64,000 bases of DNA. It comes from Comamonadaceae bacterium UBA4962 (GTDB lineage Bacteria; Pseudomonadota; Gammaproteobacteria; Burkholderiales; Burkholderiaceae_C). How positions within the stretch are numbered: the stretch's first letter is position 1; each line of letters starts with the position of its first letter. Location: assembly GCA_002397315.1 (NCBI GenBank), contig DHAE01000015.1:22869-86868 (forward strand), written 5' to 3'. The notes below the pieces were generated by a model, which made no database searches, had not been told where the DNA came from, and saw nothing but the letters and a program-made list of their open reading frames with translations. The position numbers and the translations under genes were made by a program. Below, piece by piece: positions 24,638 through 44,106 of this stretch.

Positions 24638-24666
24638 AATCTAAAGAAGCCCCGTGCAAAGGCCAA
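24638..24666 (-). promoter_or_regulatory. Candidate sigma70-type promoter downstream of the FHA gene
   Basis: The minus strand reads TTGGCC - 17 nt - TAGATT, in the only AT-richer stretch of the 223-nt gap before the 112-aa gene. Confidence 0.25.
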
Positions 24667-24676
24667 TTACATCGAA

Positions 24677-25630
24677 TTACAACCCGGGCGCCTTCCAGTC
24701 GCCTTCCGGGCGGCCGCACTTGCGGATGTGGAAGGAGTAATCGCCGAAACGCACCTCGCCCCGCCGGCGCTCCACCACCGCCAGCGCGGAGCCCAGCCCG
24801 TTCTGCACCTGCCGCCGGGCGCGGAACAGCTGGATGTTCAGGTAGGGCACGTCCACCCCCAGCATGCGGGCGAGCGTCTCGATGCCGAGCCAGCCCTGGC
24901 TCGACAGTGGCAGCCCCCGCTGCGCATCCTGCAGGCGCTGCCTCGCCAGCGTCACCAGGGTGTAATGGTGGATGCGCTCGCCCAGGGACAGCGTCTGCGC
25001 GCCGACGTGGACTTCCAGGCAGACGTGTTCCTCGTCCTGGCTGAGGTCGAAATCGAACACCGGGGCCGCGAGGGTCGGCGAGGTGGTCATGCGCGGCAGG
25101 TCCTGGGTGACGCCGAAGTCCTCGCAGAGCACGAACTCCCAGTGCCGGCCGCCCGCCTGCACCACATGGCCGTCGAGCAGCGGCACCACGTGGTCCATGC
25201 GGTCCCACCACCAGCGCCCCTCCGACTGGAACACGTTCGACTCGGCCGCAGACGGATCGGGCAGCAGGTTTTCCTGCATGTCGAGCACGCGGAGCACCTT
25301 GTCGCCCTCCAGCGGCCAGAGGCCCGTCTTCGGGCAGGAGGTGTCCACCATCTGCCAGACGGCGGTGGACGACGTGCCGAAGCGGATTTCCGCGCCCATG
25401 GCGAGCGGGTGCCAGTGCCCGGGCGGCAGGCGACGCCCGTCCATCAGGGTGCCGTTGCGGCTCTGGTCGCTGATCTCCCACTGAGTGCCGGACCAGCGCA
25501 CCAGCGCATGCAGTTTGGAGACGTCGGATTCCTGCAGTACGGTGCGGCACGAATCGGGATGCCGGCCGAAGGTATGCAGGGGGCGGAGCACGATGCTCCG
25601 GCCGCTCGGAAGGTTGTGCAAGATCGCCAT
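24677..25630 (-). CDS. FHA-domain protein with a C-terminal OmpR/PhoB-like winged-helix region
   Basis: The N-terminus has TFGRHPDSCRTVLQESDVSKLHALVRW...ISDQSRNGTLMDGRRL (FHA G-R, S-x-x-H, N-G-T). The C-terminus has LNIQLFRARRQVQ...AVVERRRGEVRFG, which resembles trans_reg_C. Confidence 0.8.
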   Translation of the reverse strand: MAILHNLPSGRSIVLRPLHTFGRHPDSCRTVLQESDVSKLHALVRWSGTQWEISDQSRNGTLMDGRRLPPGHWHPLAMGAEIRFGTSSTAVWQMVDTSCPKTGLWPLEGDKVLRVLDMQENLLPDPSAAESNVFQSEGRWWWDRMDHVVPLLDGHVVQAGGRHWEFVLCEDFGVTQDLPRMTTSPTLAAPVFDFDLSQDEEHVCLEVHVGAQTLSLGERIHHYTLVTLARQRLQDAQRGLPLSSQGWLGIETLARMLGVDVPYLNIQLFRARRQVQNGLGSALAVVERRRGEVRFGDYSFHIRKCGRPEGDWKAPGL

Positions 25631-25654: not shown

Positions 25655-27880
25655 TCAGACGTGCAGGGGCCATGGATTCAGGTGATCCTCGTGCCGCGGA
25701 ACATCGCGCCAGCCCATCTGGACAGGCACTCGGTAGAGCCGCGGGTTCGCAAGCTCCGGCCAGATGTGGCAGGCACCGGGCAACACGGTCCTGATGGTAT
25801 GCAGCGGAATGTCGGGACGCGTGTAGTCATGCACCACCACTTCCATGCCGCAACCCCGGGCGGCCGCCACGCAGTGCGCGATGTCCGCCCGTAGGCCGCC
25901 GCCCTCACGGGCGAGTGCAAGGTCGCGCATGCCGCGCCGGGCCGCTCCGTCATTGCGCGCATTGGGCCACAGAAACGCCGGGGATGCATCGCGCAGGCCA
26001 TTCCAGTGTGACGGCAACGTCTTGCCCACGGCCACGAGCTGCACCAGCTCCGTCAGGGCGCGCTCGCAGGCCATGGCCACGTCGAGGCTGCAGCCGAAGC
26101 CGAGCGCCCAGTCGCCACCGCGGTGCCGCCCAACGGCCGCCACCACGGGGATGCCCAGATCGTGGGTCAGGTCGAGCAGCCAGAACGTCCAGTCGGGCCC
26201 GAGCGTGCGCTGCACCAGCCGGACGTATCCGGCCGGCACGGCCTCTTCCGCAACCGCCGGCATCGGCAGTTCGTTGTACCACCAGATCGCCGTCGCATCC
26301 CGTTCGACCACTTCCAGCAGGCCTTGCAGGATCGCCTCTTCGGGGCAGTTGCCGGCGGCGCAGCCGTTGGAGTTCCAGGCGCCGTGGCGGGCCCATCGGT
26401 CCGGCGCACCCAGATAGCACTGGGCATGCGGAAGAAAGCACGGCGCTTCGCGCGTCAATGACCAGGCCGGCGTCCAGGCCAGCGGCTCCTCCAGGGCATG
26501 GGGCACGAAACGGCGCACGCGGTCGTCTTGCGGCCCCGTCCCGGCGGCAGCTCGCGCACGCTGTCGGTCGCTGATGAACACCAGCGCCTGCGGGCCGAAA
26601 GCCGGCGCGGGCAGCTCGTCGCGGAGGGCCACCGTGCAGGGCTCGTCGCCCTGCCAGCCCGCGGCGTAGCGCTCCACGGCCTCGCACAACGCACTGGCCT
26701 GCGCCTGTGCGGGCGTCATGCCCTTGCCCAGGCACCAGCGGGCCGCGGCCGGCATGCCGTCCGCTCCGTCCGCGGCATGGAAGGCGCTGCGGAAGACGGT
26801 GACGGTTCCGGCCTGCGGCAGGGGCAGCAGCGTGCACTCCGTGACCACGCCCGCCACGCCGTCGACGCACGGCAGCAGCGCCCGCACGGTGGCGTCGGGC
26901 GGAACGGTGCGCGACCCTCCGCGCGCGCCCGGCAGCGCCTGCACGGGGCCCGGGCGCACCGGGCGGCGCGCCTGGCGGGCCATCCACTCCGGGTCGCCGC
27001 AGTGGGCGCACTGCGGCCGCCGCGGCGCGGCGCTCCAGCGCAGCGCTCCGCCCTGCTCCGCAACGTCCCAGGCTGCGAACCGGCCGGGAACGGCGTCGGC
27101 CAGCAGTTGCCGTGCAGCGGCCTGCGCCCTCTCCTGCCACCCGGTCCACAGCGAAGCATCCCGGGCCAGCGGCACCAGCCCGTGCGAGCCGGGCACCTCC
27201 CGTGCCAGCCAGCTCCGGCCGGGGTGGTTGCGGCGCAGCCGGTGCATGAAGCAGTGCCAGCACGGGCCGGGCCCACCGGAGCGCAGCAGCGGGCCCACCA
27301 GGGCCTGCGCACCTGCCAGGCGTACCGGCAGCCACCAGCGTGCGCGGCCGGAGCGGCAGGCATCGTCCCAGGCAGCTTCGAGCCGCGGATCGAAATAATC
27401 GTCGCAGACCAGCACGTCCGCGCCGCCGGCCTCCGCGATCTCCGTCCAGCGGTCCGGGCCGATTCCCGCGCCTTCTTCGCCGGTCGCCTTCCAGGCAGCG
27501 AGCATTCCAGGCTGGCTGCACCACAGCGAGACGCTTCCGGCCGCGCCGTCGATGCGTACCGGCCCGGTCCGGACGTCCGGCAGGAACCAGCCGGGGTCTT
27601 CCGTACCCGCGGGGAGCACGCACCCCTGCCGTGCCAGCGATTCCAGCGCCAGCAGGAGGCCCGGCAGGTGGCGCGCATCGCCGCCCGCCGCGCACCAGGC
27701 AGCGGGCGAAAGCCCGCCCTCGACCAGCCCGCCGAGAACGGCGGCTTCCGCGAACGGCAGTTGCAGCGCCCCGGCTTCTTCCACGAGCACGACCCCGGGG
27801 GGCAGGGATGCCGCCTGCGGCGCGCGCAGCACGGAACGGAACCGGGGATGCCAGCGGGGTACGGTGTGGAACCAGTCCAT
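25655..27880 (-). CDS. Fused E1-like leader-binding domain / YcaO cyclodehydratase (TOMM C-D fusion type)
   Basis: 741 aa. The N-terminal half has the paired zinc motifs PCWHCFMHRLRRN and QCAHCGDP. The C-terminal half has the YcaO motifs CLGKGMTPAQAQASALCEAVERY and LLEVVERDATAIWWYN. The C-terminus is Pro-rich (-LNPWPLHV). Confidence 0.9.
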   Translation of the reverse strand: MDWFHTVPRWHPRFRSVLRAPQAASLPPGVVLVEEAGALQLPFAEAAVLGGLVEGGLSPAAWCAAGGDARHLPGLLLALESLARQGCVLPAGTEDPGWFLPDVRTGPVRIDGAAGSVSLWCSQPGMLAAWKATGEEGAGIGPDRWTEIAEAGGADVLVCDDYFDPRLEAAWDDACRSGRARWWLPVRLAGAQALVGPLLRSGGPGPCWHCFMHRLRRNHPGRSWLAREVPGSHGLVPLARDASLWTGWQERAQAAARQLLADAVPGRFAAWDVAEQGGALRWSAAPRRPQCAHCGDPEWMARQARRPVRPGPVQALPGARGGSRTVPPDATVRALLPCVDGVAGVVTECTLLPLPQAGTVTVFRSAFHAADGADGMPAAARWCLGKGMTPAQAQASALCEAVERYAAGWQGDEPCTVALRDELPAPAFGPQALVFISDRQRARAAAGTGPQDDRVRRFVPHALEEPLAWTPAWSLTREAPCFLPHAQCYLGAPDRWARHGAWNSNGCAAGNCPEEAILQGLLEVVERDATAIWWYNELPMPAVAEEAVPAGYVRLVQRTLGPDWTFWLLDLTHDLGIPVVAAVGRHRGGDWALGFGCSLDVAMACERALTELVQLVAVGKTLPSHWNGLRDASPAFLWPNARNDGAARRGMRDLALAREGGGLRADIAHCVAAARGCGMEVVVHDYTRPDIPLHTIRTVLPGACHIWPELANPRLYRVPVQMGWRDVPRHEDHLNPWPLHV

Positions 27881-27952: not shown

Positions 27953-28921
27953 TCAGGGCTGCTGCAGATCGAAGCAGGCCACGGCATAGGGTACGTGGCC
28001 GTGGCGTGCACGGAAGTCGCCTTCGAGGCGCTGATGCGCCTCCGAGAAGTGCCCGAACGGCTCCCATTGCCGAAACATGCGGAATCCCGAGTCCAGGGGC
28101 GCGAGTTCCTCGGCACGGCCGAAGCCGGTGGTCACGGGAAGGACCGCCGGCCCGGCCTGCAACGCGGCGATCGGCACGAAATCGCGGTGCAGGTAGTCGA
28201 TCACCACCCGGCAGCCGCAACCTTCCCGGCGCGCGCGTGCGGCCAGCGCACGCAGCATGTCGGGCACGGCGGCCGGCGGGACGTAGGGCGCGACCCCCTC
28301 GACGAGCACGAGGCACCGGTGGCCGGCCCGCCAGGGCACGGCGTCGAGCCACGCGGGATCCTGCAATCCGCAGGCCACCAGGAGGCTGGCCGGCTGGCTG
28401 GCATGCAGGGCTCCGGAGACATCGCCACTACCAGTGCCACTACCACTACCACTGGCGCAACCGCCGCCGTTCGCCGGTGCAGCCAGCGCGTGGTGCCACA
28501 GCAGCCGGCGCAGCGCGATCACGTCGGGCAGGTCCACGTCGATCCATGCCGGCCCGCCGCCATCGCCACCCTTGCACTCGGGCGCAAGGCGGCCCTGGCG
28601 GGTGCACAGCCCGACGCCGATGCTCGCCACGGCGAAGACGTCGTACCGCGCGCAGGCTTCGCGCGCCGCATCGTCGAAGAGGCGGCTGCGCAGCACCACC
28701 GCGCGCACCAGCGACGCGTCCTGGCCCGCTCGGCGCAGGTCCCAGGGGCATTGCGCCAGCAGGCGCTCGGCCCAGGGGTCGGCCCAGCCGGCATCGACCT
28801 GGCGCGCGAGCGGCGATGCGCGCGCGCCCAGGGTCAGGGCCAGGGTGGCAGAACTGCCGCGCAGCGCCTGCCACGCGGTCTCCAGCACTGCGGGCGCCGC
28901 GGGCTCCGGCTTGGGCACCAA
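27953..28921 (-). CDS. Class I SAM-dependent methyltransferase, leucine-carboxyl-methyltransferase (LCM/TcmP) type
   Basis: It has FAVASIGVGLCTR (LCM motif vv.LGaGlDtR) and WIDVDLPDVIALRR (E/D-x-D-x-P-x-V). The start is TTG 28921 or GTG 28918, 9-12 nt after the stop of the preceding gene. Confidence 0.75.
   Translation of the reverse strand: MVPKPEPAAPAVLETAWQALRGSSATLALTLGARASPLARQVDAGWADPWAERLLAQCPWDLRRAGQDASLVRAVVLRSRLFDDAAREACARYDVFAVASIGVGLCTRQGRLAPECKGGDGGGPAWIDVDLPDVIALRRLLWHHALAAPANGGGCASGSGSGTGSGDVSGALHASQPASLLVACGLQDPAWLDAVPWRAGHRCLVLVEGVAPYVPPAAVPDMLRALAARARREGCGCRVVIDYLHRDFVPIAALQAGPAVLPVTTGFGRAEELAPLDSGFRMFRQWEPFGHFSEAHQRLEGDFRARHGHVPYAVACFDLQQP
28424..28453 (-). repeat. Imperfect AGTGGT hexanucleotide tandem repeat encoding SGSGSGTGSG inside the methyltransferase
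   Basis: The minus strand reads AGT GGT AGT GGT AGT GGC ACT GGT AGT GGC. These T-ending codons stand out in a gene otherwise dominated by G/C-ending codons. Confidence 0.8.
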
Positions 28922-28930
28922 GGCTGCGCT

Positions 28931-29725
28931 TCAGCAGGTGAACGGGTAGGCGCTGCCGGTGTTGTTGTAGGAGGTCAGGGAGATCGGCCAGAAATCCTGT
29001 GCCTCGGGCGCGTTCGGGTAGTTCAGCACGATGCGGTTCTTGATCGGCTGGCCGCTGGCGTCGTGCTGGTTCCACGCGCCCTTGGCCGCGTCCCAGGTCA
29101 GTGCGGGATGGGCCTTGAAGCGCAGGGAGAAGTTGAACGGGTTGTTGTAGCCCAGCCACTGGCTCAGCACCGGGGCTGCATCGGCGCAGTCCGGGTTCAG
29201 CAGTTCGTCGCGGAATTCCTTCGACTGCCACGCGAGGGCGATGGCGCGCAGCACCACGCCACCGAAGGCCAGCAGCGAGCCCGGATCGCCGCCGGGAATG
29301 CCCAGGCCCGTGGGCAGCGCGCCACCCACCATGCCGGGCTGCACGGGCTCCGCGCACACGTCGACGGTCGCACCCATGAGCGTGGGGAACAGCTGGTAGT
29401 AGCTGGCCAGCGCCTCGGCGGCGCGGTCGGCGGGGGCTTCGGGGAACACGATCTCGAAGGCGTCGTCGAGGCCGATCCAGCCACCCGTGAGTTCGGGCTT
29501 CCAGAGCGTGCGGTCCTTCGGGTCGCTGCTGCGCTCCAGCGCCACGTCGAGCCAGGGCCACAGGGTCTTCAGGCCGAAATCCTCGGCCAGCAGCTTCTGG
29601 ATGTCCGTCTGCGCGAGCAGGCGGTCCCGGTATTCGGGCTCGTACCAGGATTTGGCGATGGCGCGCAGATAGGCCAGGCGGAATTCCAGCAAGGGGTCGC
29701 CGGGTTGCTGGTGATTGGAACTCAT
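28931..29725 (-). CDS. 264-aa nitrile-hydratase-leader-like (NHLP) tandem-repeat protein; presumed YcaO substrate ('BMA_0021/BMA_0022-type TOMM bacteriocin' as I recall the curated name)
   Basis: The ATG at 29725 is preceded by the strong SD GAGGGAGGA with a 6-nt spacer. It contains two NHLP-like repeats (LRAIAKSWYEPEYRDRLL... and LRAIALAWQSKEFRDELL...). The tail is S/T-rich and ends in ...SLTSYNNTGSAYPFTC-stop. Confidence 0.75.
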   Translation of the reverse strand: MSSNHQQPGDPLLEFRLAYLRAIAKSWYEPEYRDRLLAQTDIQKLLAEDFGLKTLWPWLDVALERSSDPKDRTLWKPELTGGWIGLDDAFEIVFPEAPADRAAEALASYYQLFPTLMGATVDVCAEPVQPGMVGGALPTGLGIPGGDPGSLLAFGGVVLRAIALAWQSKEFRDELLNPDCADAAPVLSQWLGYNNPFNFSLRFKAHPALTWDAAKGAWNQHDASGQPIKNRIVLNYPNAPEAQDFWPISLTSYNNTGSAYPFTC

Positions 29726-29754
29726 TGGTTGTCCTCCCTCTTTCAATCAATCGG

Positions 29755-32700
29755 TCAACACACGAATGCCCCGAGTTCGGGGCGCATACCCAGCAGGGAC
29801 TGCAGCCGCGACGCGTCGTCGGCGGTGCAGGATGCAGGATCCACATGGCGCAGGCGTGACAGTGCCTGCGCTTCCACACGGTGCTTGCCGCCCGCGCGAG
29901 CGACCTCCGCGGCCCGGCGGAAACAGGCCGGCGCGTCGCCCGCGGCGCGCGCGTCCTGCAGCAGGTATTCGGCCTTCTGCAACCACAGTTCGGCAGTGTA
30001 TATGCCCTCCGCGAGTTCGTGCGTGAGCTGCAGGCAGTGCGACACGCGGTCCACCGCATCGGACCAGCGGCCCTGGCGCGCCAGGATCTCGGCGCAGAAG
30101 GCGCGGTAGTAGGTCTGGCAGTATTTGCAGCCGATGCTCCACAGGGCCTCGATGGTGGCGTCGGCGCCCGCCAGTTCTCCGACCACCCAGCCGCGGATCA
30201 CTTCCGCATAGCCCCGGAAGGCCGGCAGGCCATAGCGCCCGGACAGCTCGATCAACTCCTCGACGACCTGGCCGGCGCGCGGAGCATCGTGCCGCCCCAG
30301 GTAGCCGAGCGCCTGGTAGAGCAGCGTGATGCCGATGGAGGGGATGTGCGCCAGCGCGCGCGCACGCGCCACGGCGCGTTCGGCGTCCTCGCGCGCCAGC
30401 ACGTCGTGGCCGGCGCCCCAGCGCACCAGGGCCCGTGCCGCCAGCGCCCAGGCCACGGTGTCGAATCCGAACTGCGCGGCATGGTGCTTGGAGAAGTCGC
30501 CGTGCCGCTCGTCGACGGCGTCCGACAGGTACTGCTCCGCGGCGTCGAACCGGCCTTCGGAATAGTGGGCCAGGCCGATCCAGGTGCAGGCGGCCACCAG
30601 GATGCCGGCGTCGCCGCGCTGGCGCGCCAGTTCCTCCAACTGCAGCGCCAGGCGCATCACCTCCGCGCGGTGGCTCGCCACGTGGTGGTAGGTGAGCATG
30701 AGCCAGATGTGCTGCACGCGCAGGTCCACGGAGATGTCGCGCTCCACCAGGCCTTGCGACAGTTCGATGCGCTGCTCCACCTGCGGATGCGCCCAGCCGT
30801 GCTTGTTCATCAGCGCCTGCATGACGTAGCCGTTGAGCGCCAGCCGCGGCTCCCAGCGGGCGGGCTCGTCCAGCCGGTCGATCCAGTCCTCGACCGTCCG
30901 TGCATAGGTGATGGTTTCGTCGTTCAGCGAACGGTGCTGCGTCATGCGCAGTTGCGCGAGCCCGGCGGGCACGGCGTTCGCGTAGTCGCGGGCCAGCGCA
31001 TAGTGGTGCGCCAGCAGGCCGGGCTCTTCGTCGCGCACGCGGGCGCGGCGCCGCAGGATGACCCCGGCGGCCACGCCGTGCATGTGGGCGCGCTGCGTCG
31101 ACAGCATGCTGTCGTAGGCCGCGTCGCGGATCAGCGCATGGCGGAACAGGTACTGGCCCGCGGCATCGGCGGGCATGAGCAGGCCCACGTCCACGAGCGC
31201 GTTCAGGCCGGCGGGCACGTCCTGCAGGCCGCAGTCCGGCAGCCAGTCGCCATCGAAACGCCGGCCCCAGATGGACGCCCAGCGCAGCACCTCGCGCGCC
31301 GGGCCGAGCTGCATGAAGCGGCTCTCCAGCGAATCACGCAGCGTGATGGGAATGCCCTTCAGATCGGCCTGCTCCTGGAAATCCCACTGGCCGTCGCGCT
31401 CTTCCAGGCAGGTCTCCAGCAATGTGCGGGCCAGCTCCTGGATGAACAGGGCGACGCCGTCCGTGCGCGCGACGACGTGGTCGACAACGGCCTGCGACAC
31501 CTGCCGCGGCGCCAGCACCTGGCGCACCATGGCGGCCGCTTCGGTCGCCCCGAGCCGGCCGAGCTCCAGCGACACGAGCGCGCCCTGCATGCGCAGCGGC
31601 GGCTCCCATTCGGGCCGGGCGGTGAGCAGCAGCATGCAGCGCTCATCGGCCAGCGCCGCCGCCAGCTCGCCGAGCCATTCCAGCGTGGCCGAATCGGCCC
31701 AATGCAGGTCTTCCACGAACAGCAGCACGGGGGACTGGCGGGACTGGTGGCGCAGCCAGCCGAGGGAGGACTCCATCAGCAGCGCCTTCTGCAGCGCCGG
31801 AGCGATGTCCACCACCTGGTGCATGCCCACCTGCAGCGACAGCCACACGCAGAAGATCGGCAGCACGCGGTCCACGTCGCAGCCGGCCTCGCCGAGCATG
31901 CGGGCCAGGCGCTCGACCACCACGGCGTCCGACTCGTCCGGGCCGCCGCACTGCGCGCGCATCAGCGCGAGCATGGGCGCCAGGGCGCTGTTCTCCTGCT
32001 CGGGCCAGCAGGCCGCGCGCAGCACCTGCCCGCCCAGCTCCTGCACGTGCGCCTGGAAGGTCTCGCTCAGGCACGACTTGCCGACACCGGCCTCGCCGCG
32101 CACCAGCACCGGGCCCCCTTCACCGCGCAGGGCCGAGCGCCAGCGGCGACGCAGGAGCAGCAATTCACGCCACCGGCCCACGGCTTCCCGCGGCAGGGCG
32201 GGCACCCCGGCGGACGCACCGTCCTGCGCCATGGCGAAGCACGGCAGTTCCGCCTGCGCGCCGGGCAACCGCACGCCGCCTTGCGGGGTGAAGTGGGCAT
32301 GGTGGCGCAGCCGCTGGCGCGCGGCCTCGCTGACAACCACCTGTCCGTCCGACGCGGCCTGCTCCATGGCCGTCGCGATGCTCAGCGCGCGGCAGGGAAC
32401 GACTGCCCCGCTCTCGATGAGTACCGACCCCGTGTGCAGGCCGATACGCACTTCCCAGCGCACGTCCCCGACCGGCTGGGCCGCGGAGCGCACCAGTTCG
32501 TGCGCGATCTGCACGGCCAGCCGCGCATCCGCCTCGGCATGGGCGGAATAACCGAGTGTGACCAGGAAGTGCGTTCCCAAGGTGCCGCCGAGCGTGCCGC
32601 CGCGTTGCACCGCCACGTCGATCAGGCGGCGCAGCACGTTGCGTTGCGCCATTTCCTGCTGTTCGGCGAGTTCCTCGTCGCCGGCTTCCGGACCGGACGC

Positions 32701-33705
32701 GAAATAGACGCCGCAGTACAGCAGGGTGAGCTGCCGTTTCTCTTCATGGGGCGTGCCGAACGCGACCGTCGGCGCGATGCCGCTCGCACCCGTGCCCGGC
32801 CGGGTGCGCAGCACGCCGACCAGATCGTCCAGGCGAACGGCGGAAGAGCGCTCCCAGAGCTGTCGGGCGGAAGCGGCCCGGTCCTCGCGCCGCTTGCGCA
32901 GGGCGGTGCGCAGCACCTCGGCCAGCGGGTGGCCCTGGATCGCCTGCGGCAGGCTGAATTCCTGCGGCGAGAGCTGGCGCTGGTAGATCTCGGCGGTGGA
33001 TTCCCCCGTCACCACGCGCCCGGTGAGGCATTCCAAGAAGATGAGGCCCCAGGCATACAGGTCGGACTGGGGCGTGGCGACCTCGCCGCGCAGCTGCTCG
33101 GGTGCGCTGTAGGCGGGCGTGCCGACGTACTCGCCTTCGCGCGTGAGCTGGGTGGCATGCGCGTCGCCGAACCCCGGCAGCAGCGTGCTGATGCCGAAAT
33201 CCAGCACCTTGGCATGCGAGGTCAGCCCGGAGGCGCTGATCATGATGTTCTCGGGCTTGAGGTCGCGGTGCGCGATGCCGGCGTCGTGCGCGCAGGCCAC
33301 GGCATCCAGCACCTGCAGCATCAGGCGTCCCGCCTCGCCCGCGGACAGCGCGCCCTGCTGCTGCAGCAGTTGCCGCAGCGTCATCCCCGGCACGAATTCG
33401 AAGACCGCGAAGACGAAGGGGCCGCACACGCCTTCGTCCAGCAATTGCACCACGTGCGGGTGGTGCAGCCGAGCACAGGCCCCGATCTCGCGGCGGAAAC
33501 GCTTGAACAGCCGCTCGTCGTCGTCGATGCGGACGAATTTCAGCACGACCTTCTGGCCGGTCTGCTGCTGCAGCGCGGAAAAGACGATGCCGTAGGAGCC
33601 GGTGCCGATCACTTCCTGCAGCACGTAGCGCTGCACGAGGGTGGCGTCCGCAGCGAAAGCCTGCTGGATCTGGCCGGGATCGGGAGGTCGGAAGCTCATG
33701 CCCAT
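29755..33705 (-). CDS. Ser/Thr protein kinase / degenerate class III cyclase-homology domain / P-loop STAND ATPase with TPR-like C-terminus ('TOMM system kinase/cyclase fusion protein' type)
   Basis: The kinase motifs VVLKFV, HRDLKPENIM, DFGIS and GTPAYSAPEQ are intact. The cyclase-like region (about aa 323-495) lacks both metal-binding Asp residues. Walker A is GEAGVGKS, followed by a long helical repeat tail. The start is ATG 33705 or 33699. Confidence 0.9.
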   Translation of the reverse strand: MGMSFRPPDPGQIQQAFAADATLVQRYVLQEVIGTGSYGIVFSALQQQTGQKVVLKFVRIDDDERLFKRFRREIGACARLHHPHVVQLLDEGVCGPFVFAVFEFVPGMTLRQLLQQQGALSAGEAGRLMLQVLDAVACAHDAGIAHRDLKPENIMISASGLTSHAKVLDFGISTLLPGFGDAHATQLTREGEYVGTPAYSAPEQLRGEVATPQSDLYAWGLIFLECLTGRVVTGESTAEIYQRQLSPQEFSLPQAIQGHPLAEVLRTALRKRREDRAASARQLWERSSAVRLDDLVGVLRTRPGTGASGIAPTVAFGTPHEEKRQLTLLYCGVYFASGPEAGDEELAEQQEMAQRNVLRRLIDVAVQRGGTLGGTLGTHFLVTLGYSAHAEADARLAVQIAHELVRSAAQPVGDVRWEVRIGLHTGSVLIESGAVVPCRALSIATAMEQAASDGQVVVSEAARQRLRHHAHFTPQGGVRLPGAQAELPCFAMAQDGASAGVPALPREAVGRWRELLLLRRRWRSALRGEGGPVLVRGEAGVGKSCLSETFQAHVQELGGQVLRAACWPEQENSALAPMLALMRAQCGGPDESDAVVVERLARMLGEAGCDVDRVLPIFCVWLSLQVGMHQVVDIAPALQKALLMESSLGWLRHQSRQSPVLLFVEDLHWADSATLEWLGELAAALADERCMLLLTARPEWEPPLRMQGALVSLELGRLGATEAAAMVRQVLAPRQVSQAVVDHVVARTDGVALFIQELARTLLETCLEERDGQWDFQEQADLKGIPITLRDSLESRFMQLGPAREVLRWASIWGRRFDGDWLPDCGLQDVPAGLNALVDVGLLMPADAAGQYLFRHALIRDAAYDSMLSTQRAHMHGVAAGVILRRRARVRDEEPGLLAHHYALARDYANAVPAGLAQLRMTQHRSLNDETITYARTVEDWIDRLDEPARWEPRLALNGYVMQALMNKHGWAHPQVEQRIELSQGLVERDISVDLRVQHIWLMLTYHHVASHRAEVMRLALQLEELARQRGDAGILVAACTWIGLAHYSEGRFDAAEQYLSDAVDERHGDFSKHHAAQFGFDTVAWALAARALVRWGAGHDVLAREDAERAVARARALAHIPSIGITLLYQALGYLGRHDAPRAGQVVEELIELSGRYGLPAFRGYAEVIRGWVVGELAGADATIEALWSIGCKYCQTYYRAFCAEILARQGRWSDAVDRVSHCLQLTHELAEGIYTAELWLQKAEYLLQDARAAGDAPACFRRAAEVARAGGKHRVEAQALSRLRHVDPASCTADDASRLQSLLGMRPELGAFVC

Positions 33706-38009: not shown

Positions 38010-38146
38010 GCGGACGAAGACCCCGGCGCGGGCGCCGGCACGGCCCGGGCAAGGCCCGCAGGCACGGCCCACACCACCGGGCATCCGCCCATGGCTCGCC
38101 GGCCGGCTGACTGGCAAGTCGGCCATTCGGCGCACCGCAGCAGGCT

Positions 38147-40624
38147 TTACTGTGGATCGATCGGGCGCTTGCGATGGAGTTCGTCCAACTCCAGGCGCAG
38201 TTCCAGCCGGTCGTTGTCCATGCCGAAACCCACCGGCTCGCCAGGCGCCGGAGGTGCCGTGACCGGCATCGGCGGCAGATCGCTGAGCGTGAGGTGCGGC
38301 GGATCCGACAGGTCGAGATCGAGCATCGCATCCGGGTCGGAATACAGGCTCGCAGGCGCCGTCGGCGTGGCCGCGGAAGGCGGGACGGCAGGAGAAGGCA
38401 TCGGCGGCAGCGGCGCGGGCAGCGATTCCCACGTCAGGCCGCCCGAGAGCGTGTCGAAGGAGCGCAGCTCTTCGTCGCGCTCTGCTTCCCGGGCTGCTGC
38501 CGGTGCGGGGTACTGCGCGGCCAGCGCTTCGTCGTCCGGCGTCTCCATGGGCGTGGTGCGGCGGCGCGGCGGCGCCTCGCCCCGGGCGCTGGCGGGGGTG
38601 GTCTGGGCGATGGCGAGCAGCAGCAGCAGGTCGTCGAACGCCGCAAGATCGAACTGCATGGCCAGCACGGCATCCGCCTGCCGGAAGAGCAGGCCCTCGA
38701 TCACGCCCAGGACGGCGGGAGAAGACCATTCGGCCTCGATCGCCGCCAGCGCGTCGGGAAAGCCCAGCAGGGTGCGGCCGGCGCGGTGGAACGTACCGAA
38801 TTCCGGGACGAAGACGTTGAACTGCGCACGGAACTGTTCACGGAGCTGGTGGAAGCTCTCCACACGCCCGAGCGTGTGGTAGAGCCGCAGCAGTTCGAGA
38901 TACGCGAAGGCCGACGTCTCTCCATGTGCGGCGATGTGCTGCTTGAGCACGGCGATCGCCTGGTCGTGCTCGCCGACCGAGACGAAGAATTCCGCCTGCT
39001 GCTGGATGTCGAACAGGTCTTCGGGCAACGGTCCCGCCGTCCGCACGGTGGCCGCAGCGGGGGCGTGGACGGGAGCCGGCGGCGGCAGGGTTGCAGCCGC
39101 GGACGGAGCGAACACCGGCGGCGGGGCAGGCACGGAGGGAGGCGGCGATGCGACCGCGGCAGAGGCCGCAGGCTGCAGCGGTGCGCCCCGCGTGAGGGCG
39201 GGCCCTTCGACCAGCACGGCGCTGGAGAGCGAATCCGCGAATGCCGGGAAATGGGAACTGTCGTCGCCCCGCAGCGCAGCGGCCACGGACATGGGAACGG
39301 TCACGGGCGGCGGCACGGCTGGCGCAGGCGGTTTGGCGGCTCCCGTGCCGCGCGGCATCACGGGCAGGCGCCGCGGCTTGCCGAGCGGTGCATCGTCCCC
39401 CTGCGGCCGCGTCGGCACGCCCAGGGGCCCTGCCTCCGCGGCGGCATCGGCACCCGCAACGCCGGAAACCGGTGGCTGGCTGTTCGCCGCGACCACCTGC
39501 GTCCAGGTGGTTTCGCGCAGGCGGCGGGACCGCGCCCAAAGCCATGCGGCGAGCGCGAGCAGCAGTGCGACGAGGCCCAGCAGCACGTACACCACGACGG
39601 CCGGAAAACGGTCGGATTCGGCACTGTCGAGGCGCTGGCGCAGATCGGCTGCCGCAGCGCGCTCGGAAGCGGCCCGCGCGCGCTCGGTCGCGACCACGCC
39701 TTCCAACTGGGCCGTGCGCCCGGCGGCGCGCTGCACGTCTTCCACCGGGGTGTTGAGCGCCTTCCAGAGCGCAGCGGCTTCGGCGCGCTGCTCGGCGGAG
39801 GCCGGGGCGGCCACGGAGGCCGGCGAAAGTTCGGGGGAATTGCGCAGCGGGAGCGGAGCTTCGAGCCAGACATCCAGCGGCTCCATGACGAGCCGCGCCC
39901 GCTCGGCCGCGGGCGACGCCGGGGCGGCCGGCGCAGGGCGCCGGGCCCGGCTGGAAGGCGCGGCGGCCGTGGACGCCGCGGCAGTGTCGGCCGGCCTGCT
40001 CCGGGTGGATGGCTGGGCCGCAGCCACCGACGCCGCCGTGGCCGGCGCGGCATCGGTGGCCGCCGCACGCGCCGGGCGTGTGCTGCCGCGTGCCGCGCCA
40101 CTGGAGGCCGTGTCGCCGGCGGCACCGGGGGCGCCTGGGCGCGCGCCCGCCGCGCCCGCGCCCGCGAGTTGTCCGATATCGAGCGGACGGGCGGAGGCCG
40201 AAGCGGAAGAAGCCGTCTCGGGGAGCTGCGAAAGGAAGACATACCGGCGGCTCACACCGCCGCTGCAGCCGGCGGTGACCATGGCGGTGAGCACCGGCTC
40301 GTCGGCCGTGATGAACGCGCGTACCCGCACGGCCGGTACACGCCCCGCCGTTGCCGGCACGGGGGTGATCTGCACTTTCGAATCCGGTACCGCGGTGTCG
40401 CCCGACAGCAGGCGCACGCGCACGCACGAGGAGGCGATGTCGGTGCCCGGATCCGGCTGCACGTCGAAGACGAGGTCCACCGGAGCACCGAGCACCACCG
40501 TTCCATGGCTGGCACCCAGCGAAATCGCGGCCGCGCCGGTCGCGACGGCCGTCAGGCCCGCTCCGATGATCGTGTTACTTATTTTCACAATGGTTGCGTT
40601 TTTATTCAATCCATTCTTGCACAT
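38147..40624 (-). CDS. Large FimV-like membrane protein (signal peptide, Ala/Pro-rich low-complexity regions, one TM segment, TPR-like module)
   Basis: It has the N-terminal signal KISNTIIGAGLTAVATGAAAISLGA and the TM segment FPAVVVYVLLGLVALLLALAAWLW. The module AEFFVSVGEHDQAIAVLKQHI resembles the FimV helical motif. The start is ATG 40624 or GTG 40588. Confidence 0.55.
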   Translation of the reverse strand: MCKNGLNKNATIVKISNTIIGAGLTAVATGAAAISLGASHGTVVLGAPVDLVFDVQPDPGTDIASSCVRVRLLSGDTAVPDSKVQITPVPATAGRVPAVRVRAFITADEPVLTAMVTAGCSGGVSRRYVFLSQLPETASSASASARPLDIGQLAGAGAAGARPGAPGAAGDTASSGAARGSTRPARAAATDAAPATAASVAAAQPSTRSRPADTAAASTAAAPSSRARRPAPAAPASPAAERARLVMEPLDVWLEAPLPLRNSPELSPASVAAPASAEQRAEAAALWKALNTPVEDVQRAAGRTAQLEGVVATERARAASERAAAADLRQRLDSAESDRFPAVVVYVLLGLVALLLALAAWLWARSRRLRETTWTQVVAANSQPPVSGVAGADAAAEAGPLGVPTRPQGDDAPLGKPRRLPVMPRGTGAAKPPAPAVPPPVTVPMSVAAALRGDDSSHFPAFADSLSSAVLVEGPALTRGAPLQPAASAAVASPPPSVPAPPPVFAPSAAATLPPPAPVHAPAAATVRTAGPLPEDLFDIQQQAEFFVSVGEHDQAIAVLKQHIAAHGETSAFAYLELLRLYHTLGRVESFHQLREQFRAQFNVFVPEFGTFHRAGRTLLGFPDALAAIEAEWSSPAVLGVIEGLLFRQADAVLAMQFDLAAFDDLLLLLAIAQTTPASARGEAPPRRRTTPMETPDDEALAAQYPAPAAAREAERDEELRSFDTLSGGLTWESLPAPLPPMPSPAVPPSAATPTAPASLYSDPDAMLDLDLSDPPHLTLSDLPPMPVTAPPAPGEPVGFGMDNDRLELRLELDELHRKRPIDPQ

Positions 40625-40660
40625 AAGCGCCTGCTCCCCTCGCCGCCATAATGGCGCTCC

Positions 40661-43032: not shown

Positions 43033-43152
43033 ACCACCGGCAACGGCAACGCCAGGGCGGCCCCTTTGTCGGCCCCGGCATCGCCCGACCTGGCCCTGCG
43101 CCAGGCCAGTGCTCCGCCCCCCGCGTGCCGGGCCGAGCGGAGCATCCTGAGA

Positions 43153-43260
43153 GCGGCTCACACGACCCAGCGAAGCGGTTCTGGCGAGGCGCCGCATCGT
43201 AGGCAGTACGCGCAGTACGGCAAGATGCGGCAACGACGCCAGAAGGGTCGTGTGAGCCGC
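43153..43260. repeat. 108-nt nested inverted repeat (16 + 6 + 8 bp stems), a possible structured RNA or MITE-like element
   Basis: The outer stem is GCGGCTCACACGACCC ... GGGTCGTGTGAGCCGC (16/16). The middle stem is CTGGCG/CGCCAG and the inner stem is GCCGCATC/GATGCGGC. The 25-nt apical loop contains CAGTACG twice. Confidence 0.6.
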
Positions 43261-43359
43261 GCTAAGACACGCGCGCGACATCGGAGCCCCCATGCACCGC
43301 TGGCACGCCCGTCCCCCGGGCGACAATGCCCCGGCCTCCAGTCACGCAAAAGACAGACC

Positions 43360-44079
43360 ATGGACGACCCCATTCTTACCATCGAAGAACGAGAGGCGAT
43401 CAATACCGGTCGCTGGTTTTCCTCCCTTTCCCCTTCGCTGCGGCACGACATACTCCGATGCGCCTACGTCAAACGCTTCAAGGATGGCGGCCTGATCGCC
43501 GCCCGCGGCGATCCGCCGGAGGAGTGGATCGCCTGCGCGAAGGGCGCGGTGCGCGTGAGCTCCACGTCGATCTCCGGCAAGCAGATCACGCTGACCTACG
43601 TCGAGCCGGGCATCTGGTTCGGCGACGTGGCGATCTTCGACGGCGACCGGCGCACGCACGATGCCTACGCGCACGGGGACACCACCATCCTCTGCGTCGC
43701 CAAGGCGGATTTCCGCAAGATCCTGGCCACGCACGTGGAGTTCTACGAAGCGATGCTGCGCCTGCATGCGCGGCGCATCCGCCAGCTCTACGGCCTGGTG
43801 GAAGACCTCAACACCCTGCCGCTGCGGGCACGGCTGGCCAAGCAGCTGCTGCACCTGGTGCGCAGCTACGGCATTCCGAGCCTGTCGCACGGCGACGAGG
43901 TGCGCATCGGCCTGCAGCTCGCGCAGGAGGAACTGGCCCAGCTGCTCGGCGCCTCGCGCCAGCGGGTGAACCAGGAACTCAAGGCCATGGAACGCGAGGA
44001 CGCCATCCGCATCGAGCCGGGCGGCCTCGTCGTGCGCGACCGTGACGTGCTGATGCGCATCGCCGAAACCGACCACTAG
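43360..44079 (+). CDS. Crp/Fnr-family transcriptional regulator
   Basis: 239 aa with a cNMP-binding beta-roll (GIWFGDVAIFDGDRRTHDAYA) and the C-terminal HTH QEELAQLLGASRQRVNQELKAME. Confidence 0.85.
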   Translation: MDDPILTIEEREAINTGRWFSSLSPSLRHDILRCAYVKRFKDGGLIAARGDPPEEWIACAKGAVRVSSTSISGKQITLTYVEPGIWFGDVAIFDGDRRTHDAYAHGDTTILCVAKADFRKILATHVEFYEAMLRLHARRIRQLYGLVEDLNTLPLRARLAKQLLHLVRSYGIPSLSHGDEVRIGLQLAQEELAQLLGASRQRVNQELKAMEREDAIRIEPGGLVVRDRDVLMRIAETDH

Positions 44080-44106
44080 AACCCCTTTTCCGCCGACCCA
44101 TCATCC

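What the first reader, a model, noticed from the sequence alone, without database searches (positions are those of the whole stretch)
28931..29725. Presumed substrate is a tandem duplication of a nitrile-hydratase-leader-like module ending in ...SAYPFTC-stop
Two internal repeats are visible by eye. Repeat 1 is aa 12-80 (LEFRLAYLRAIAKSWYEPEYRDRLLAQTDIQKLLAEDFGL...). Repeat 2 is aa 151-220 (LLAFGGVVLRAIALAWQSKEFRDELLNPDCADAAPVLSQWLGY...). Both follow the NHLP pattern (aliphatic-A-K/L-A/S-W..(P/K)E(F/Y)R..LL). They are joined by a Gly/Pro-rich linker (PVQPGMVGGALPTGLGIPGGDPGS) carrying two Gly-Gly motifs of the kind used as leader-cleavage sites in NHLP peptides. The nitrile hydratase metal motif (CxLCSC) is absent. 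Only three Cys are present and the last residue of the protein is Cys, after an S/T/N-rich tail (ISLTSYNNTGSAYPFTC). A terminal Thr-Cys is an obvious candidate site for YcaO chemistry (azoline, thioamide or amidine), and the free C-terminus is a candidate for carboxyl methylation. It has the strongest SD in the cluster (GAGGGAGGA), which is consistent with a highly expressed substrate.
Basis: partly seen in the sequence, partly recalled or inferred. Interest (0 to 1): 0.75.

Follow-up and report, generated by a model that had tools for sequence, protein, structure and literature searches.

The report
Fused NHLP-Burk YcaO substrate protein
This gene encodes the single-chain form of a protein family described in 2010 (NHLP-Burk, "two-chain TOMM") that is thought to be chemically modified at its invariant C-terminal cysteine by the neighbouring YcaO enzyme.

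Summary
The ORF (minus strand, 28931-29725, 264 aa) is real and is an internal duplication. It scores 191 bits (cut-off 41) on TIGR03795, "BMA_0021/BMA_0022 family TOMM bacteriocin", in two stretches. The halves align profile-to-profile over about 100 columns (E 1.4e-15).

Haft, Basu and Mitchell (2010) described this family: separate tandem genes in Burkholderia, fused in Acidovorax avenae and Delftia, ending in Cys or Cys-Cys, next to a cyclodehydratase fusion and a large Ser/Thr kinase. The window is a close Acidovorax/Paracidovorax relative (84-87% identity).

The conserved operon is kinase/cyclase (TIGR03903), this protein, an LCM-type methyltransferase, a LynD/TruD-like E1-YcaO fusion and an FHA protein.

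- **Tail:** A-L-x-x-Y-N-x-T-G-x-x-Y-P-F-T/S-C is nearly invariant across 400+ representative clusters.
- **Gly-Gly sites:** the linker Gly-Gly motifs are not conserved, and no protease or exporter was found.
- **Conservation:** this protein is the most conserved gene of the cluster and is predicted to fold well, unlike a hypervariable bacteriocin precursor.
- **Methyltransferase link:** all 41 loci whose protein ends exactly at Cys carry the methyltransferase. Methyltransferase-less loci always have extra residues, often with an Amidohydro_2 gene instead.

Verdict: already known; the chemistry is uncharacterised.

The parts
28931..29725 (-). Gene for the 264-aa fused NHLP-Burk / RNP_Burkhold protein, the presumed YcaO substrate. 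The coordinates include the TGA stop.
   Evidence: Translation. TIGR03795 scores 191 bits against a cut-off of 41, in 2 stretches. Homologues carry precomputed PF27793, which names RNP_Burkhold.
29732..29740 (-). Shine-Dalgarno GAGGGAGGA, 6 nt upstream of the ATG. It is the strongest in the operon.
   Evidence: Sequence. Upstream regions of all operon genes compared.
29393..29704 (-). N-terminal repeat or domain (aa 8-111). It carries motif 1, LRAIAKSWYEPEYRDRLL, and ends in EALASYYQ.
   Evidence: hhalign of the two halves. AlphaFold alpha+beta domain H11-116 with pLDDT above 90. Slightly closer to the upstream gene of the B. thailandensis pair (96 vs 88).
29282..29368 (-). Gly/Pro-rich linker (aa 120-148), predicted disordered. 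Its Gly-Gly pairs are not conserved.
   Evidence: pLDDT 50-68. Alignments A1 and A2. The linker corresponds to the gene boundary in Burkholderia.
28961..29287 (-). C-terminal repeat or domain (aa 147-255). It carries motif 1, LRAIALAWQSKEFRDELL, and ends in ISLTSYNN.
   Evidence: Best TIGR03795 stretch is aa 135-261. hhalign. Orthologous to the downstream gene of the B. thailandensis pair (154 vs 86).
28934..28984 (-). Nearly invariant C-terminal tail ISLTSYNNTGSAYPFTC (aa 248-264). The last ~10 residues are predicted flexible. Cys264 is the inferred modification site.
   Evidence: Invariant L250, Y253, N254, T256, G257, Y260, P261, F262 and C264. The motif is present in 165 of 172 representatives. 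pLDDT is 50-66.
29755..33705 (-). TOMM-system kinase/cyclase fusion protein (1316 aa): Ser/Thr kinase, class III cyclase-like domain and an AAA_16 STAND ATPase.
   Evidence: TIGR03903 scores 1727 bits. Pfam Pkinase, Guanylate_cyc and AAA_16. HRDLKPEN, DFG, APE and Walker A are intact. Syntenic in nearly all loci.
27953..28921 (-). LCM-family SAM-dependent methyltransferase (322 aa). It starts a few nt after the stop of the substrate gene.
   Evidence: PF04072 at E 3e-8. TIGR00027 is weak. Present in all 41 loci whose precursor ends at Cys.
25655..27880 (-). E1-like plus YcaO fusion cyclodehydratase (741 aa).
   Evidence: PF02624 scores 258 bits. TIGR03882 and TIGR03604. Closest solved structures are LynD (5e-82) and TruD (3e-80), aligned to the C-terminus.
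24677..25630 (-). FHA-domain protein (317 aa), co-conserved with the system.
   Evidence: PF00498. Present in most related loci, including Burkholderia.
24648..24664 (-). Terminator-like hairpin just after the FHA gene, the likely end of the operon.
   Evidence: Consensus scan only.

Best explanation
**What it is.** The ORF is the single-chain (fused) form of the NHLP-Burk / TIGR03795 / PF27793 'two-chain TOMM' protein.

**Architecture.** Two anciently duplicated domains, distantly related to nitrile hydratase alpha, appear to fold together into one globular unit. This unit presents a flexible, almost invariant C-terminal tail (...ALTSYNNTGxAYPF-T-C).

**Inferred mechanism**
1. The adjacent LynD/TruD-like E1-YcaO enzyme uses ATP to activate the Thr263-Cys264 amide.
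2. The Cys264 thiol attacks it to give a C-terminal thiazoline. No dehydrogenase gene is in the cluster, so it would stay an azoline.
3. The LCM-type methyltransferase methyl-esterifies the C-terminal carboxylate in lineages where Cys is the last, or next to last, residue. This may neutralise a charge that would otherwise sit beside the YcaO reaction centre.

**Other points**
- The Gly/Pro linker is a tether, not a leader-cleavage site.
- The co-conserved STAND Ser/Thr kinase/cyclase and FHA protein probably control the modified protein or read it out.
- There is no conserved protease or exporter, and the whole protein is under strong purifying selection. I therefore think it acts as a modified protein, or as the donor of one conserved small product, rather than as a hypervariable bacteriocin precursor.

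**Shown:** family membership, duplication, tail conservation, synteny and enzyme homologies.
**Inferred:** that it is the YcaO substrate, the site, the thiazoline chemistry, the methyl ester, and the role of the kinase and FHA protein.

**Confidence.** Family membership is about 0.97. The full mechanism as stated is about 0.6.
For: **Family and literature**
- TIGR03795 scores 191 bits in 2 stretches.
- Haft et al. 2010 describe exactly this fused form in Acidovorax avenae and Delftia, with a C-terminal Cys and a large kinase.
- The nearest loci are Acidovorax/Paracidovorax at 84-87% identity.

**Duplication and fold**
- hhalign of the halves gives E 1.4e-15.
- The AlphaFold full-length model has pLDDT 87 and pTM 0.84, with a disordered linker and tail.
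- The C-half modelled alone loses its strands and drops to pLDDT 76. This suggests the domains depend on each other.

**Tail**
- It is invariant in 165 of 172 representatives and persists in distant members.
- The exhaustive profile search finds 415 representative clusters, and nearly all of the top 150 listed match in two stretches.

**Synteny and enzymes**
- Kinase, substrate, (methyltransferase), YcaO and FHA are syntenic in 61 loci.
- The YcaO aligns to the thiazoline-forming LynD and TruD at 5e-82 and 3e-80, and keeps the CxxC pairs of the E1-like domain.
- The methyltransferase is PF04072 LCM.

**Methyltransferase and the C-terminus**
- 41 of 41 loci ending at Cys have the methyltransferase.
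- 0 of 12 loci with a follower starting C, N, S or D have it.
- The methyltransferase and an Amidohydro_2 gene are mutually exclusive: 46 loci with the first, 8 with the second, none with both.
- A 2025 paper states that no characterised YcaO modifies a residue that bears the free C-terminal carboxylate. It suggests charge repulsion as the reason (PMC12338566).

**Conservation and absent functions**
- The substrate is the most conserved gene of the cluster: 62.5% median identity against 35-49% for the enzymes.
- No C39/ABC exporter or protease appears among the neighbours scanned. Haft et al. found none in these species either.
Against: - No experiment exists. I found no paper that characterises any member.
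- The YcaO lacks the canonical C-terminal PxPxP of azoline formers. It ends NPWPLHV here and NPQALYV in most relatives, so the chemistry could differ (thioamide, amidine or other).
- The methyltransferase-tail link is phylogenetically shallow. On an NJ tree the terminal-Cys state arose only about twice, both times inside methyltransferase-positive clades.
- The methyltransferase also occurs with one-residue followers: three loci with G, one with A and one with P.
- LCM-family enzymes also include small-molecule O-methyltransferases.
- Fold similarity to nitrile hydratase alpha is weak (Foldseek E about 0.1, TM 0.27-0.33; nothing for the isolated C-domain).
- The kinase could instead phosphorylate conserved Ser/Thr residues of the tail, and the YcaO could act elsewhere in the protein.
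Confidence: 0.6

Rival explanations
1. It is a classical two-peptide bacteriocin precursor. The two NHLP-like halves are leaders, the protein is cut at the linker Gly-Gly sites and before the tail, and short modified peptides are exported as a toxin. This is the reading implied by the database name 'TOMM bacteriocin'.
For: The family name and the original proposal of a two-chain product. The linker contains Gly-Gly. The strong SD fits a highly expressed precursor.
Against: - The Gly-Gly pairs are not conserved, and the PGG one is deleted in distant homologues.
- TIGR03795 has no motif 2.
- No C39-peptidase ABC transporter or protease is in the conserved cluster.
- The 'core' is invariant rather than hypervariable.
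- The whole protein is more conserved than its enzymes and is predicted to be a compact fold.
- Only one Cys is conserved. Many relatives have a single Cys.
Confidence: 0.1
2. It is the precursor of a conserved small molecule (cofactor or signal) that is excised from the C-terminus after YcaO modification. This would parallel mycofactocin or PQQ, whose precursors also have invariant C-terminal residues. The two domains would serve only as the recognition scaffold.
For: - The tail is invariant across phyla.
- Accessory enzymes track the exact C-terminal end: methyltransferase against Amidohydro_2.
- The Amidohydro_2 relatives are ACMSD-type decarboxylases or hydrolases that act on small carboxylates.
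- The kinase/cyclase STAND protein could be the sensor of such a molecule.
Against: - No peptidase is conserved in the cluster.
- The scaffold domains are themselves extremely conserved, more than a mere recognition element needs to be.
- The analogy with mycofactocin and PQQ comes from my general knowledge and was not tested here.
Confidence: 0.2
3. It is not the YcaO substrate at all. It would be a structural or regulatory partner, for example a target or adaptor of the Ser/Thr kinase and FHA module, with the YcaO acting on another protein or on itself.
For: - Conserved Thr, Ser and Tyr residues in the tail could be phosphosites.
- The kinase is catalytically intact, and FHA domains bind phospho-Thr.
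- The protein is seen at protein level in B. thailandensis in stationary phase (BTH_I0516).
Against: - The gene is always immediately next to the YcaO, or to methyltransferase plus YcaO.
- The YcaO is of the substrate-binding LynD/TruD type.
- The single invariant Cys follows Thr/Ser, which is the canonical azoline context.
- Accessory enzymes co-vary with the C-terminus.
Confidence: 0.08

Closest known systems
NHLP-Burk (TIGR03795, 'BMA_0021/BMA_0022 family TOMM bacteriocin'; Pfam PF27793 RNP_Burkhold). Haft, Basu and Mitchell, BMC Biol 2010 (PMC2887384)
   Same: It is a member. It passes the HMM by a wide margin and has two copies of the domain. It has motif 1 (IALAWxxxEFRDELL), a C-terminal Cys, an adjacent cyclodehydratase-docking fusion and a large Ser/Thr kinase. 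The fused form in Acidovorax and Delftia is explicitly described in the paper.
   Different: Nothing essential differs.

This analysis adds the following:
- The fused form is the majority architecture and is spread well beyond Burkholderiales.
- The tail is invariant.
- An LCM methyltransferase or an Amidohydro_2 gene tracks the exact C-terminal end.
NHLP proper (TIGR03793) and Nif11-type leader peptides of proteusins, lanthipeptides and TOMMs
   Same: It shares the nitrile-hydratase-alpha-derived motif 1 and an association with a fused E1-YcaO enzyme.
   Different: - No TIGR03793 hit at E <= 1.
- No ELSxExLxxVxGG cleavage motif and no hypervariable Cys/Ser/Thr-rich core.
- No C39 ABC exporter among the neighbours scanned.
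- The domain is duplicated and the whole protein is conserved.
Nitrile hydratase alpha subunit (PF02979 / TIGR01323)
   Same: There are weak but consistent collinear similarities: motif 1 at aa 21-41, and the W-x-x-x-D...LP-x-x-P stretch. Nitrile hydratase alpha chains are the only PDB sequence hits and the top Foldseek hits.
   Different: - All scores are far below family cut-offs: 16 bits against 27 (Pfam) and 15 against 250 (NCBIfam).
- TM-scores are only about 0.3.
- The CxLCSC metal site is absent.
- No beta-subunit gene is present.
Cyanobactin heterocyclases LynD, TruD and PatD with their PatE-type substrates
   Same: The modifying enzyme here is their closest relative with a solved structure. 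It has the same E1-like plus YcaO fusion and aligns end to end. LynD and TruD make thiazolines from Cys; that statement rests on established knowledge, not on a test here.
   Different: - The substrate is a 264-aa folded protein with one target Cys at or next to the C-terminus, not a short multi-core peptide.
- The PxPxP end of the enzyme is degenerate.
- There are no PatA/PatG-type proteases.
- A kinase/cyclase and an FHA protein are part of the system.
C-terminal heterocycle routes in bottromycin and daptide biosynthesis (as summarised in PMC12338566)
   Same: They pose the same problem, a YcaO-made heterocycle at the very C-terminus. In those systems the carboxylate is kept away by a follower peptide or removed first by decarboxylation. 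Here the followers plus Amidohydro_2, or a carboxyl methyltransferase, may play the analogous role.
   Different: - The substrates are unrelated.
- The Amidohydro_2 here belongs to the ACMSD-type family.
- No enzymology exists for this system.

Membership tests
NHLP-Burk / TIGR03795 / PF27793 | Scores above the curated cut-off of the family HMM | tested here: met
   191 bits against a cut-off of 41, E 5.5e-57. All homologues carry PF27793.
NHLP-Burk / TIGR03795 / PF27793 | Occurs as a pair of paralogous modules (tandem genes or a fusion) | tested here: met
   Two HMM stretches. hhalign of the halves gives E 1.4e-15. The halves are collinear with the B. thailandensis gene pair.
NHLP-Burk / TIGR03795 / PF27793 | Motif 1 (IALAWHDPEFRDELL-like), with no Gly-Gly motif 2 | tested here: met
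   IAKSWYEPEYRDRLL and IALAWQSKEFRDELL. The linker Gly-Gly pairs are not conserved. Table 3 of PMC2887384.
NHLP-Burk / TIGR03795 / PF27793 | C-terminus is Cys or Cys-Cys | tested here: met
   It ends ...YPFTC-stop. The Cys is invariant in the alignments.
NHLP-Burk / TIGR03795 / PF27793 | Clustered with a cyclodehydratase-docking fusion (TIGR03882 plus YcaO) and a large Ser/Thr kinase (TIGR03903) | tested here: met
   Synteny in 61 loci.
NHLP-Burk / TIGR03795 / PF27793 | Is actually modified by the YcaO (thiazol(in)e product) | not testable with these tools
   No experimental report was found.
NHLP proper (TIGR03793) | HMM match, a Gly-Gly leader-cleavage motif, a hypervariable core and a C39/ABC exporter | tested here: not met
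   No TIGR03793 hit at E <= 1. The Gly-Gly pairs are not conserved. The tail is invariant. No exporter appears among the neighbours scanned.
Nitrile hydratase alpha subunit | Family HMM above cut-off and the CxLCSC metal-binding motif | tested here: not met
   PF02979 scores 16.3 bits against 27.2. TIGR01323 scores 14.6 against 249.85. There is no CxLCSC. Foldseek gives E about 0.1 and TM about 0.3.
Canonical azoline-forming TOMM/LAP system | YcaO with an E1-like partner domain | tested here: met
   TIGR03882 at aa 183-346 plus YcaO at aa 385-703. LynD and TruD at 5e-82 and 3e-80.
Canonical azoline-forming TOMM/LAP system | C-terminal PxPxP motif of the YcaO | tested here: not met
   The window enzyme ends NPWPLHV, and most relatives end NPQALYV. 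LynD has NPTPM.. at the aligned position. The motif is cited as the hallmark in PMC12338566.
Canonical azoline-forming TOMM/LAP system | FMN dehydrogenase (SagB type), leader protease and exporter in the cluster | tested here: not met
   None appears among the operon genes or flanking ORFs scanned, nor in related loci.

The most novel reading that the evidence does not exclude
The family may not be a bacteriocin at all. It would be a folded two-domain protein whose invariant C-terminal Cys is converted by a LynD-like YcaO directly at the protein's C-terminus. The neighbouring carboxylate would be handled by alternative accessory enzymes: methyl esterification by an LCM-type methyltransferase where Cys is terminal, or follower residues plus an ACMSD-type Amidohydro_2 elsewhere. 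The modified protein would act inside the cell together with a STAND Ser/Thr kinase/cyclase and an FHA protein, as a signalling or regulatory device. That would be a YcaO-installed protein (not peptide) modification with a dedicated signalling module.
Probability: 0.3. Interest if true: 0.7.

Novelty: already known. Interest (0 to 1): 0.33.

Why it matters
The family, its fused form in Acidovorax, its terminal Cys and its kinase neighbour were published in 2010 and are named in standard annotation.

What remains of interest is that, in the literature I could search, nobody has determined the product or function of this widespread system. The exhaustive search finds 415 representative clusters.

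The comparative data collected here argue against the 'bacteriocin' label:
- The substrate is the most conserved gene of the cluster.
- The tail is invariant.
- No protease or exporter is present.
- The kinase and FHA protein are conserved with it.
- The methyltransferase and Amidohydro_2 are mutually exclusive and track the C-terminus.

These data point to a concrete, testable chemistry at the very C-terminus of a protein.

Tried and rejected
- **Gly-Gly leader cleavage.** Rejected. The sites are not conserved, the linker equals the intergenic gap in Burkholderia, and no C39 exporter is present.
- **Strict NHLP (TIGR03793) membership.** Rejected. There is no hit at E <= 1.
- **Nitrile-hydratase-alpha fold by structure.** Inconclusive. 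The full-length model gives only nitrile hydratase alpha as top hits, but at E about 0.1 and TM about 0.3. Modelling the C-half alone gave a poorer model (pLDDT 76) and no hits.
- **Simple rule 'methyltransferase if and only if Cys is terminal'.** It looked perfect in the first 50 genome loci. Extra metagenomic loci broke it: the methyltransferase also occurs with followers G, A and P. It is weakened further by the tree, which shows about two independent origins. Only the one-way statement survives: terminal Cys always comes with the methyltransferase.
- **Amidohydro_2 as a PurAH-like follower peptidase.** Not supported by sequence. Its solved relatives are ACMSD-type decarboxylases and PtmU3.
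- **Known anti-phage defence system.** PADLOC matches only the generic kinase domain.
- **Literature searches for any experimental characterisation.** These covered locus tags, TIGR accessions, 'two-chain TOMM' and YcaO plus Burkholderia. They found only the 2010 paper, a 2015 survey and a proteomics table. The 2017 YcaO review is not held.
Full report
**1. The observation**

The ORF lies on the minus strand, with its ATG at 29725 and a TGA stop at 28931-28933, and encodes 264 aa.
- There are three Cys (C124, C180, C264) and the last residue is Cys.
- There is no CxLCSC motif.
- The tail is ISLTSYNNTGSAYPFTC.
- The Gly/Pro linker spans aa 127-150.
- The Shine-Dalgarno GAGGGAGGA sits at 29732-29740, 6 nt before the start. 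It is clearly the strongest in the operon.

The genome has about 70% G+C, so raw ORF lists are noisy. I called genes by codon-position G+C and confirmed them by family searches.

**2. The internal repeat**

- A Smith-Waterman comparison of the halves scores 69, against 28 +/- 4.9 for 1000 shuffles. This pairwise signal covers only motif 1.
- Profiles of the two halves, built from 42 homologues, align over 98 columns (aa 8-111 vs 147-255) with 98.6% probability and E 1.4e-15.
- In that alignment EALASYYQ of the N-half pairs with ISLTSYNN of the C-half. The start of the 'tail' is therefore part of the repeated domain, not an appended core peptide.

**3. What it is**

NCBIfam gives TIGR03795, 'BMA_0021/BMA_0022 family TOMM bacteriocin', at 191 bits (cut-off 41) in two stretches. 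Pfam-A in the local copy shows only a sub-threshold nitrile hydratase alpha hit at aa 21-41. Homologues carry the newer PF27793 RNP_Burkhold.

This family is 'NHLP-Burk' of Haft, Basu and Mitchell 2010 (PMC2887384). That paper states the following:
- The genes occur as tandem pairs in Burkholderia.
- The pairs are fused into a single polypeptide in Delftia acidovorans and Acidovorax avenae.
- One member ends in Cys or Cys-Cys.
- A large Ser/Thr kinase accompanies them.
- The Gly-Gly motif 2 is not applicable to this family.
- No NHLP-type exporter exists in these species.

A 2015 survey repeats this. The closest genomic loci to the window are Acidovorax sp. PRC11 (87%), A. sacchari, and Paracidovorax oryzae, cattleyae, citrulli and avenae at 84-85%. 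The finding is therefore a rediscovery of an annotated family in a close relative of the organisms in which the fusion was first described.

**4. Surroundings**

The minus-strand operon is as follows:

| Gene | Coordinates | Size and evidence |
|---|---|---|
| Kinase/cyclase fusion | 29755-33705 | TIGR03903, 1727 bits |
| This gene | 28931-29725 | 264 aa |
| LCM-family methyltransferase | 27953-28921 | PF04072 |
| E1-like plus YcaO fusion | 25655-27880 | 741 aa |
| FHA protein | 24677-25630 | 317 aa |

- A terminator-like hairpin follows the FHA gene.
- The flanks are thiamine genes (thiD, thiO, thiG, thiE) on one side and sulfate-assimilation genes on the other. No exporter or protease was found.
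- The kinase has intact catalytic motifs and a Walker A.
- The YcaO is most similar to the cyanobactin heterocyclases LynD (5e-82) and TruD (3e-80), aligned right to the C-terminus.
- Its terminal PxPxP motif is degenerate: NPWPLHV here and NPQALYV in most relatives. A recent paper cites that motif as the hallmark of azoline formers (PMC12338566).
- PADLOC recognises nothing except the generic kinase domain.

**5. Comparative evidence**

- A word-indexed search found 81 relatives. A profile of the C-half found 126, including the short Burkholderia and Massilia forms.
- An exhaustive profile search found 415 representative clusters at E <= 1e-3. Nearly all of the top 150 listed match in two stretches and are 240-330 aa long. 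The fused form is therefore the rule and the split form the exception.
- Fifty genome loci and eleven more from contig look-ups show the same core of kinase/cyclase, substrate and YcaO, usually with FHA. They come from Comamonadaceae, Rivihabitans, Aquabacterium, Burkholderia, Shewanella, Myxococcota, SAR324, Entotheonella and Pedobacter.
- In B. thailandensis the order is FHA, kinase, 120-aa gene, 120-aa gene ending YLFTCC, then YcaO. The window's C-half is orthologous to the downstream gene (154 vs 86). The N-half is marginally closer to the upstream gene (96 vs 88).
- The tail A-L-x-x-Y-N-x-T-G-x-x-Y-P-F-T/S-C is present in 165 of 172 representatives. The others are fragments or slight variants. 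It persists in the most distant members.
- In contrast, the two linker Gly-Gly pairs are variable or deleted.
- At every evolutionary distance the substrate is the most conserved gene of the cluster. Against other betaproteobacteria the median identities are 62.5% for the substrate, 47% for the kinase, 35% for the methyltransferase, 41% for the YcaO and 49% for FHA. This is the reverse of the usual pattern for ribosomally made, post-translationally modified peptides.

**6. Structure**

- AlphaFold2 with 68 sequences gives pLDDT 87 and pTM 0.84. The model has two alpha+beta domains (about 11-116 and 149-253), a disordered linker and a flexible last ~10 residues.
- The C-half modelled alone is worse (pLDDT 76) and loses its strands. 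This suggests the halves fold together.
- Foldseek against the PDB puts nitrile hydratase alpha chains on top for the full model, but weakly (E about 0.1, TM 0.27-0.33). It finds nothing for the isolated half.
- A profile search of PDB sequences hits only nitrile hydratase alpha, at E about 1, in two collinear motifs.
- The nitrile hydratase relationship is therefore plausible and consistent with the literature, but it is not demonstrated at fold level here.

**7. The C-terminus and the accessory enzymes**

| C-terminal state | Loci with methyltransferase |
|---|---|
| Ends exactly at Cys | 41 of 41 |
| One follower residue (G, A, P or I) | 5 of 8 |
| Follower starting with C, N, S or D | 0 of 12 |

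(All.)

- Eight methyltransferase-less loci instead carry a homologous Amidohydro_2 gene next to the YcaO. These are four Shewanella loci, SAR324, Polyangiaceae, Sorangium and Myxococcus.
- The methyltransferase and Amidohydro_2 never co-occur (46 loci with the first, 8 with the second).
- The solved relatives of the Amidohydro_2 protein are ACMSD-type decarboxylases and PtmU3.
- An NJ tree built without the tail shows that the terminal-Cys state arose about twice, both times inside methyltransferase-positive clades. The statistical weight is therefore modest.
- Still, accessory enzymes that track the exact C-terminal end are independent evidence that the chemistry happens there.
- PMC12338566 notes that no characterised YcaO modifies a residue bearing the free C-terminal carboxylate. 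In bottromycin a follower peptide is present during cyclisation, and daptide YcaOs act only after decarboxylation, possibly because of charge repulsion.
- By inference, methyl esterification (here) or follower residues (elsewhere) could solve the same problem.

**8. Mechanism proposed**

The mechanism below is inferred. Only family membership, duplication, conservation, synteny and the enzyme homologies are shown.
1. A folded two-domain scaffold presents a flexible invariant tail.
2. The LynD-like YcaO activates the Thr263-Cys264 amide with ATP, and the thiol closes a thiazoline.
3. No dehydrogenase is present, so an azoline is expected.
4. The LCM-type methyltransferase esterifies the terminal carboxylate.
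5. The kinase/cyclase STAND protein and the FHA protein regulate the product or read it out.
6. No cleavage at the linker is needed.

**9. Rivals**

I considered three alternatives: a classical two-peptide bacteriocin, a precursor of a conserved small molecule, and a non-substrate partner of the kinase. They are weighed in the rival explanations.

**10. Novelty and verdict**

The finding is already known as a family and as a fused architecture, and the gene is routinely annotated. I found no experimental characterisation. The only protein-level observation is BTH_I0516 rising in stationary-phase B. thailandensis.

Interest is low to moderate. The finding itself is ordinary. The system remains an unsolved and apparently mislabelled YcaO pathway, and the comparative patterns above make it directly testable.

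Noticed in passing
Related loci L042, L043, L044, L046, L047, L048, L050 and L056 (e.g. L042:10922-12163, L046:13113-14327): Clusters that lack the LCM methyltransferase and whose substrate has residues after the conserved Cys often carry a homologous Amidohydro_2 (PF04909) gene next to the YcaO. The methyltransferase and Amidohydro_2 never co-occur. The solved relatives of the Amidohydro_2 protein are ACMSD-type decarboxylases and PtmU3.
   Followed up: partly
window 25655-25680 (C-terminus of the YcaO), and the same position in L001-L061: The LynD/TruD-like YcaO lacks the canonical terminal PxPxP. It ends NPWPLHV here and NPQALYV in most relatives, although it aligns to LynD up to the last residues.
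   Followed up: partly
window 33696-33705: The thiD (HMP-P kinase) stop overlaps the start of the kinase/cyclase gene by 10 nt. In Acidovorax/Paracidovorax the five-gene system sits between thiamine genes (thiD; thiO, thiG and thiE on the other strand) and sulfate-assimilation genes (cysN, sulfite reductase). This placement is not kept in other genera.
   Followed up: partly
window 43066-45195: A Crp-like cNMP-binding transcription factor (43066-44079) and an APH-family phosphotransferase (44107-45195) lie about 10 kb from the cyclase-domain protein. No link was tested.
   Followed up: no
window 38010-40660: This ~2.6-kb stretch has long ORFs on both strands (e.g. 38174-40651, +, 825 aa). That ORF has no Pfam hit at E <= 1e-5, and no ORF in the stretch passes my codon-position G+C filter. 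Its coding status is unclear.
   Followed up: no
Proteins P0185, P0188, P0219, P0229, P0246, P0261 and P0273: These family members of about 320-360 aa are reported with three HMM stretches. On reading the sequences, the extra length looked like large insertions rather than a third repeat, but I did not align them. They keep the YxxxGxxYPF[TS]C end.
   Followed up: partly
P0001 compared with window aa 44: The nearest database protein (from Logan assemblies only, contigs <= 2.9 kb) differs from the window protein by one residue (K44T). The exact window sequence appears not to be in the protein collection under a named genome.
   Followed up: no
L055:8767-9315: A methyltransferase-like sequence (69% identical to the L059 methyltransferase) follows the substrate gene. 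The gene caller instead placed ORFs on the opposite strand. This may be a frameshifted or miscalled methyltransferase.
   Followed up: no
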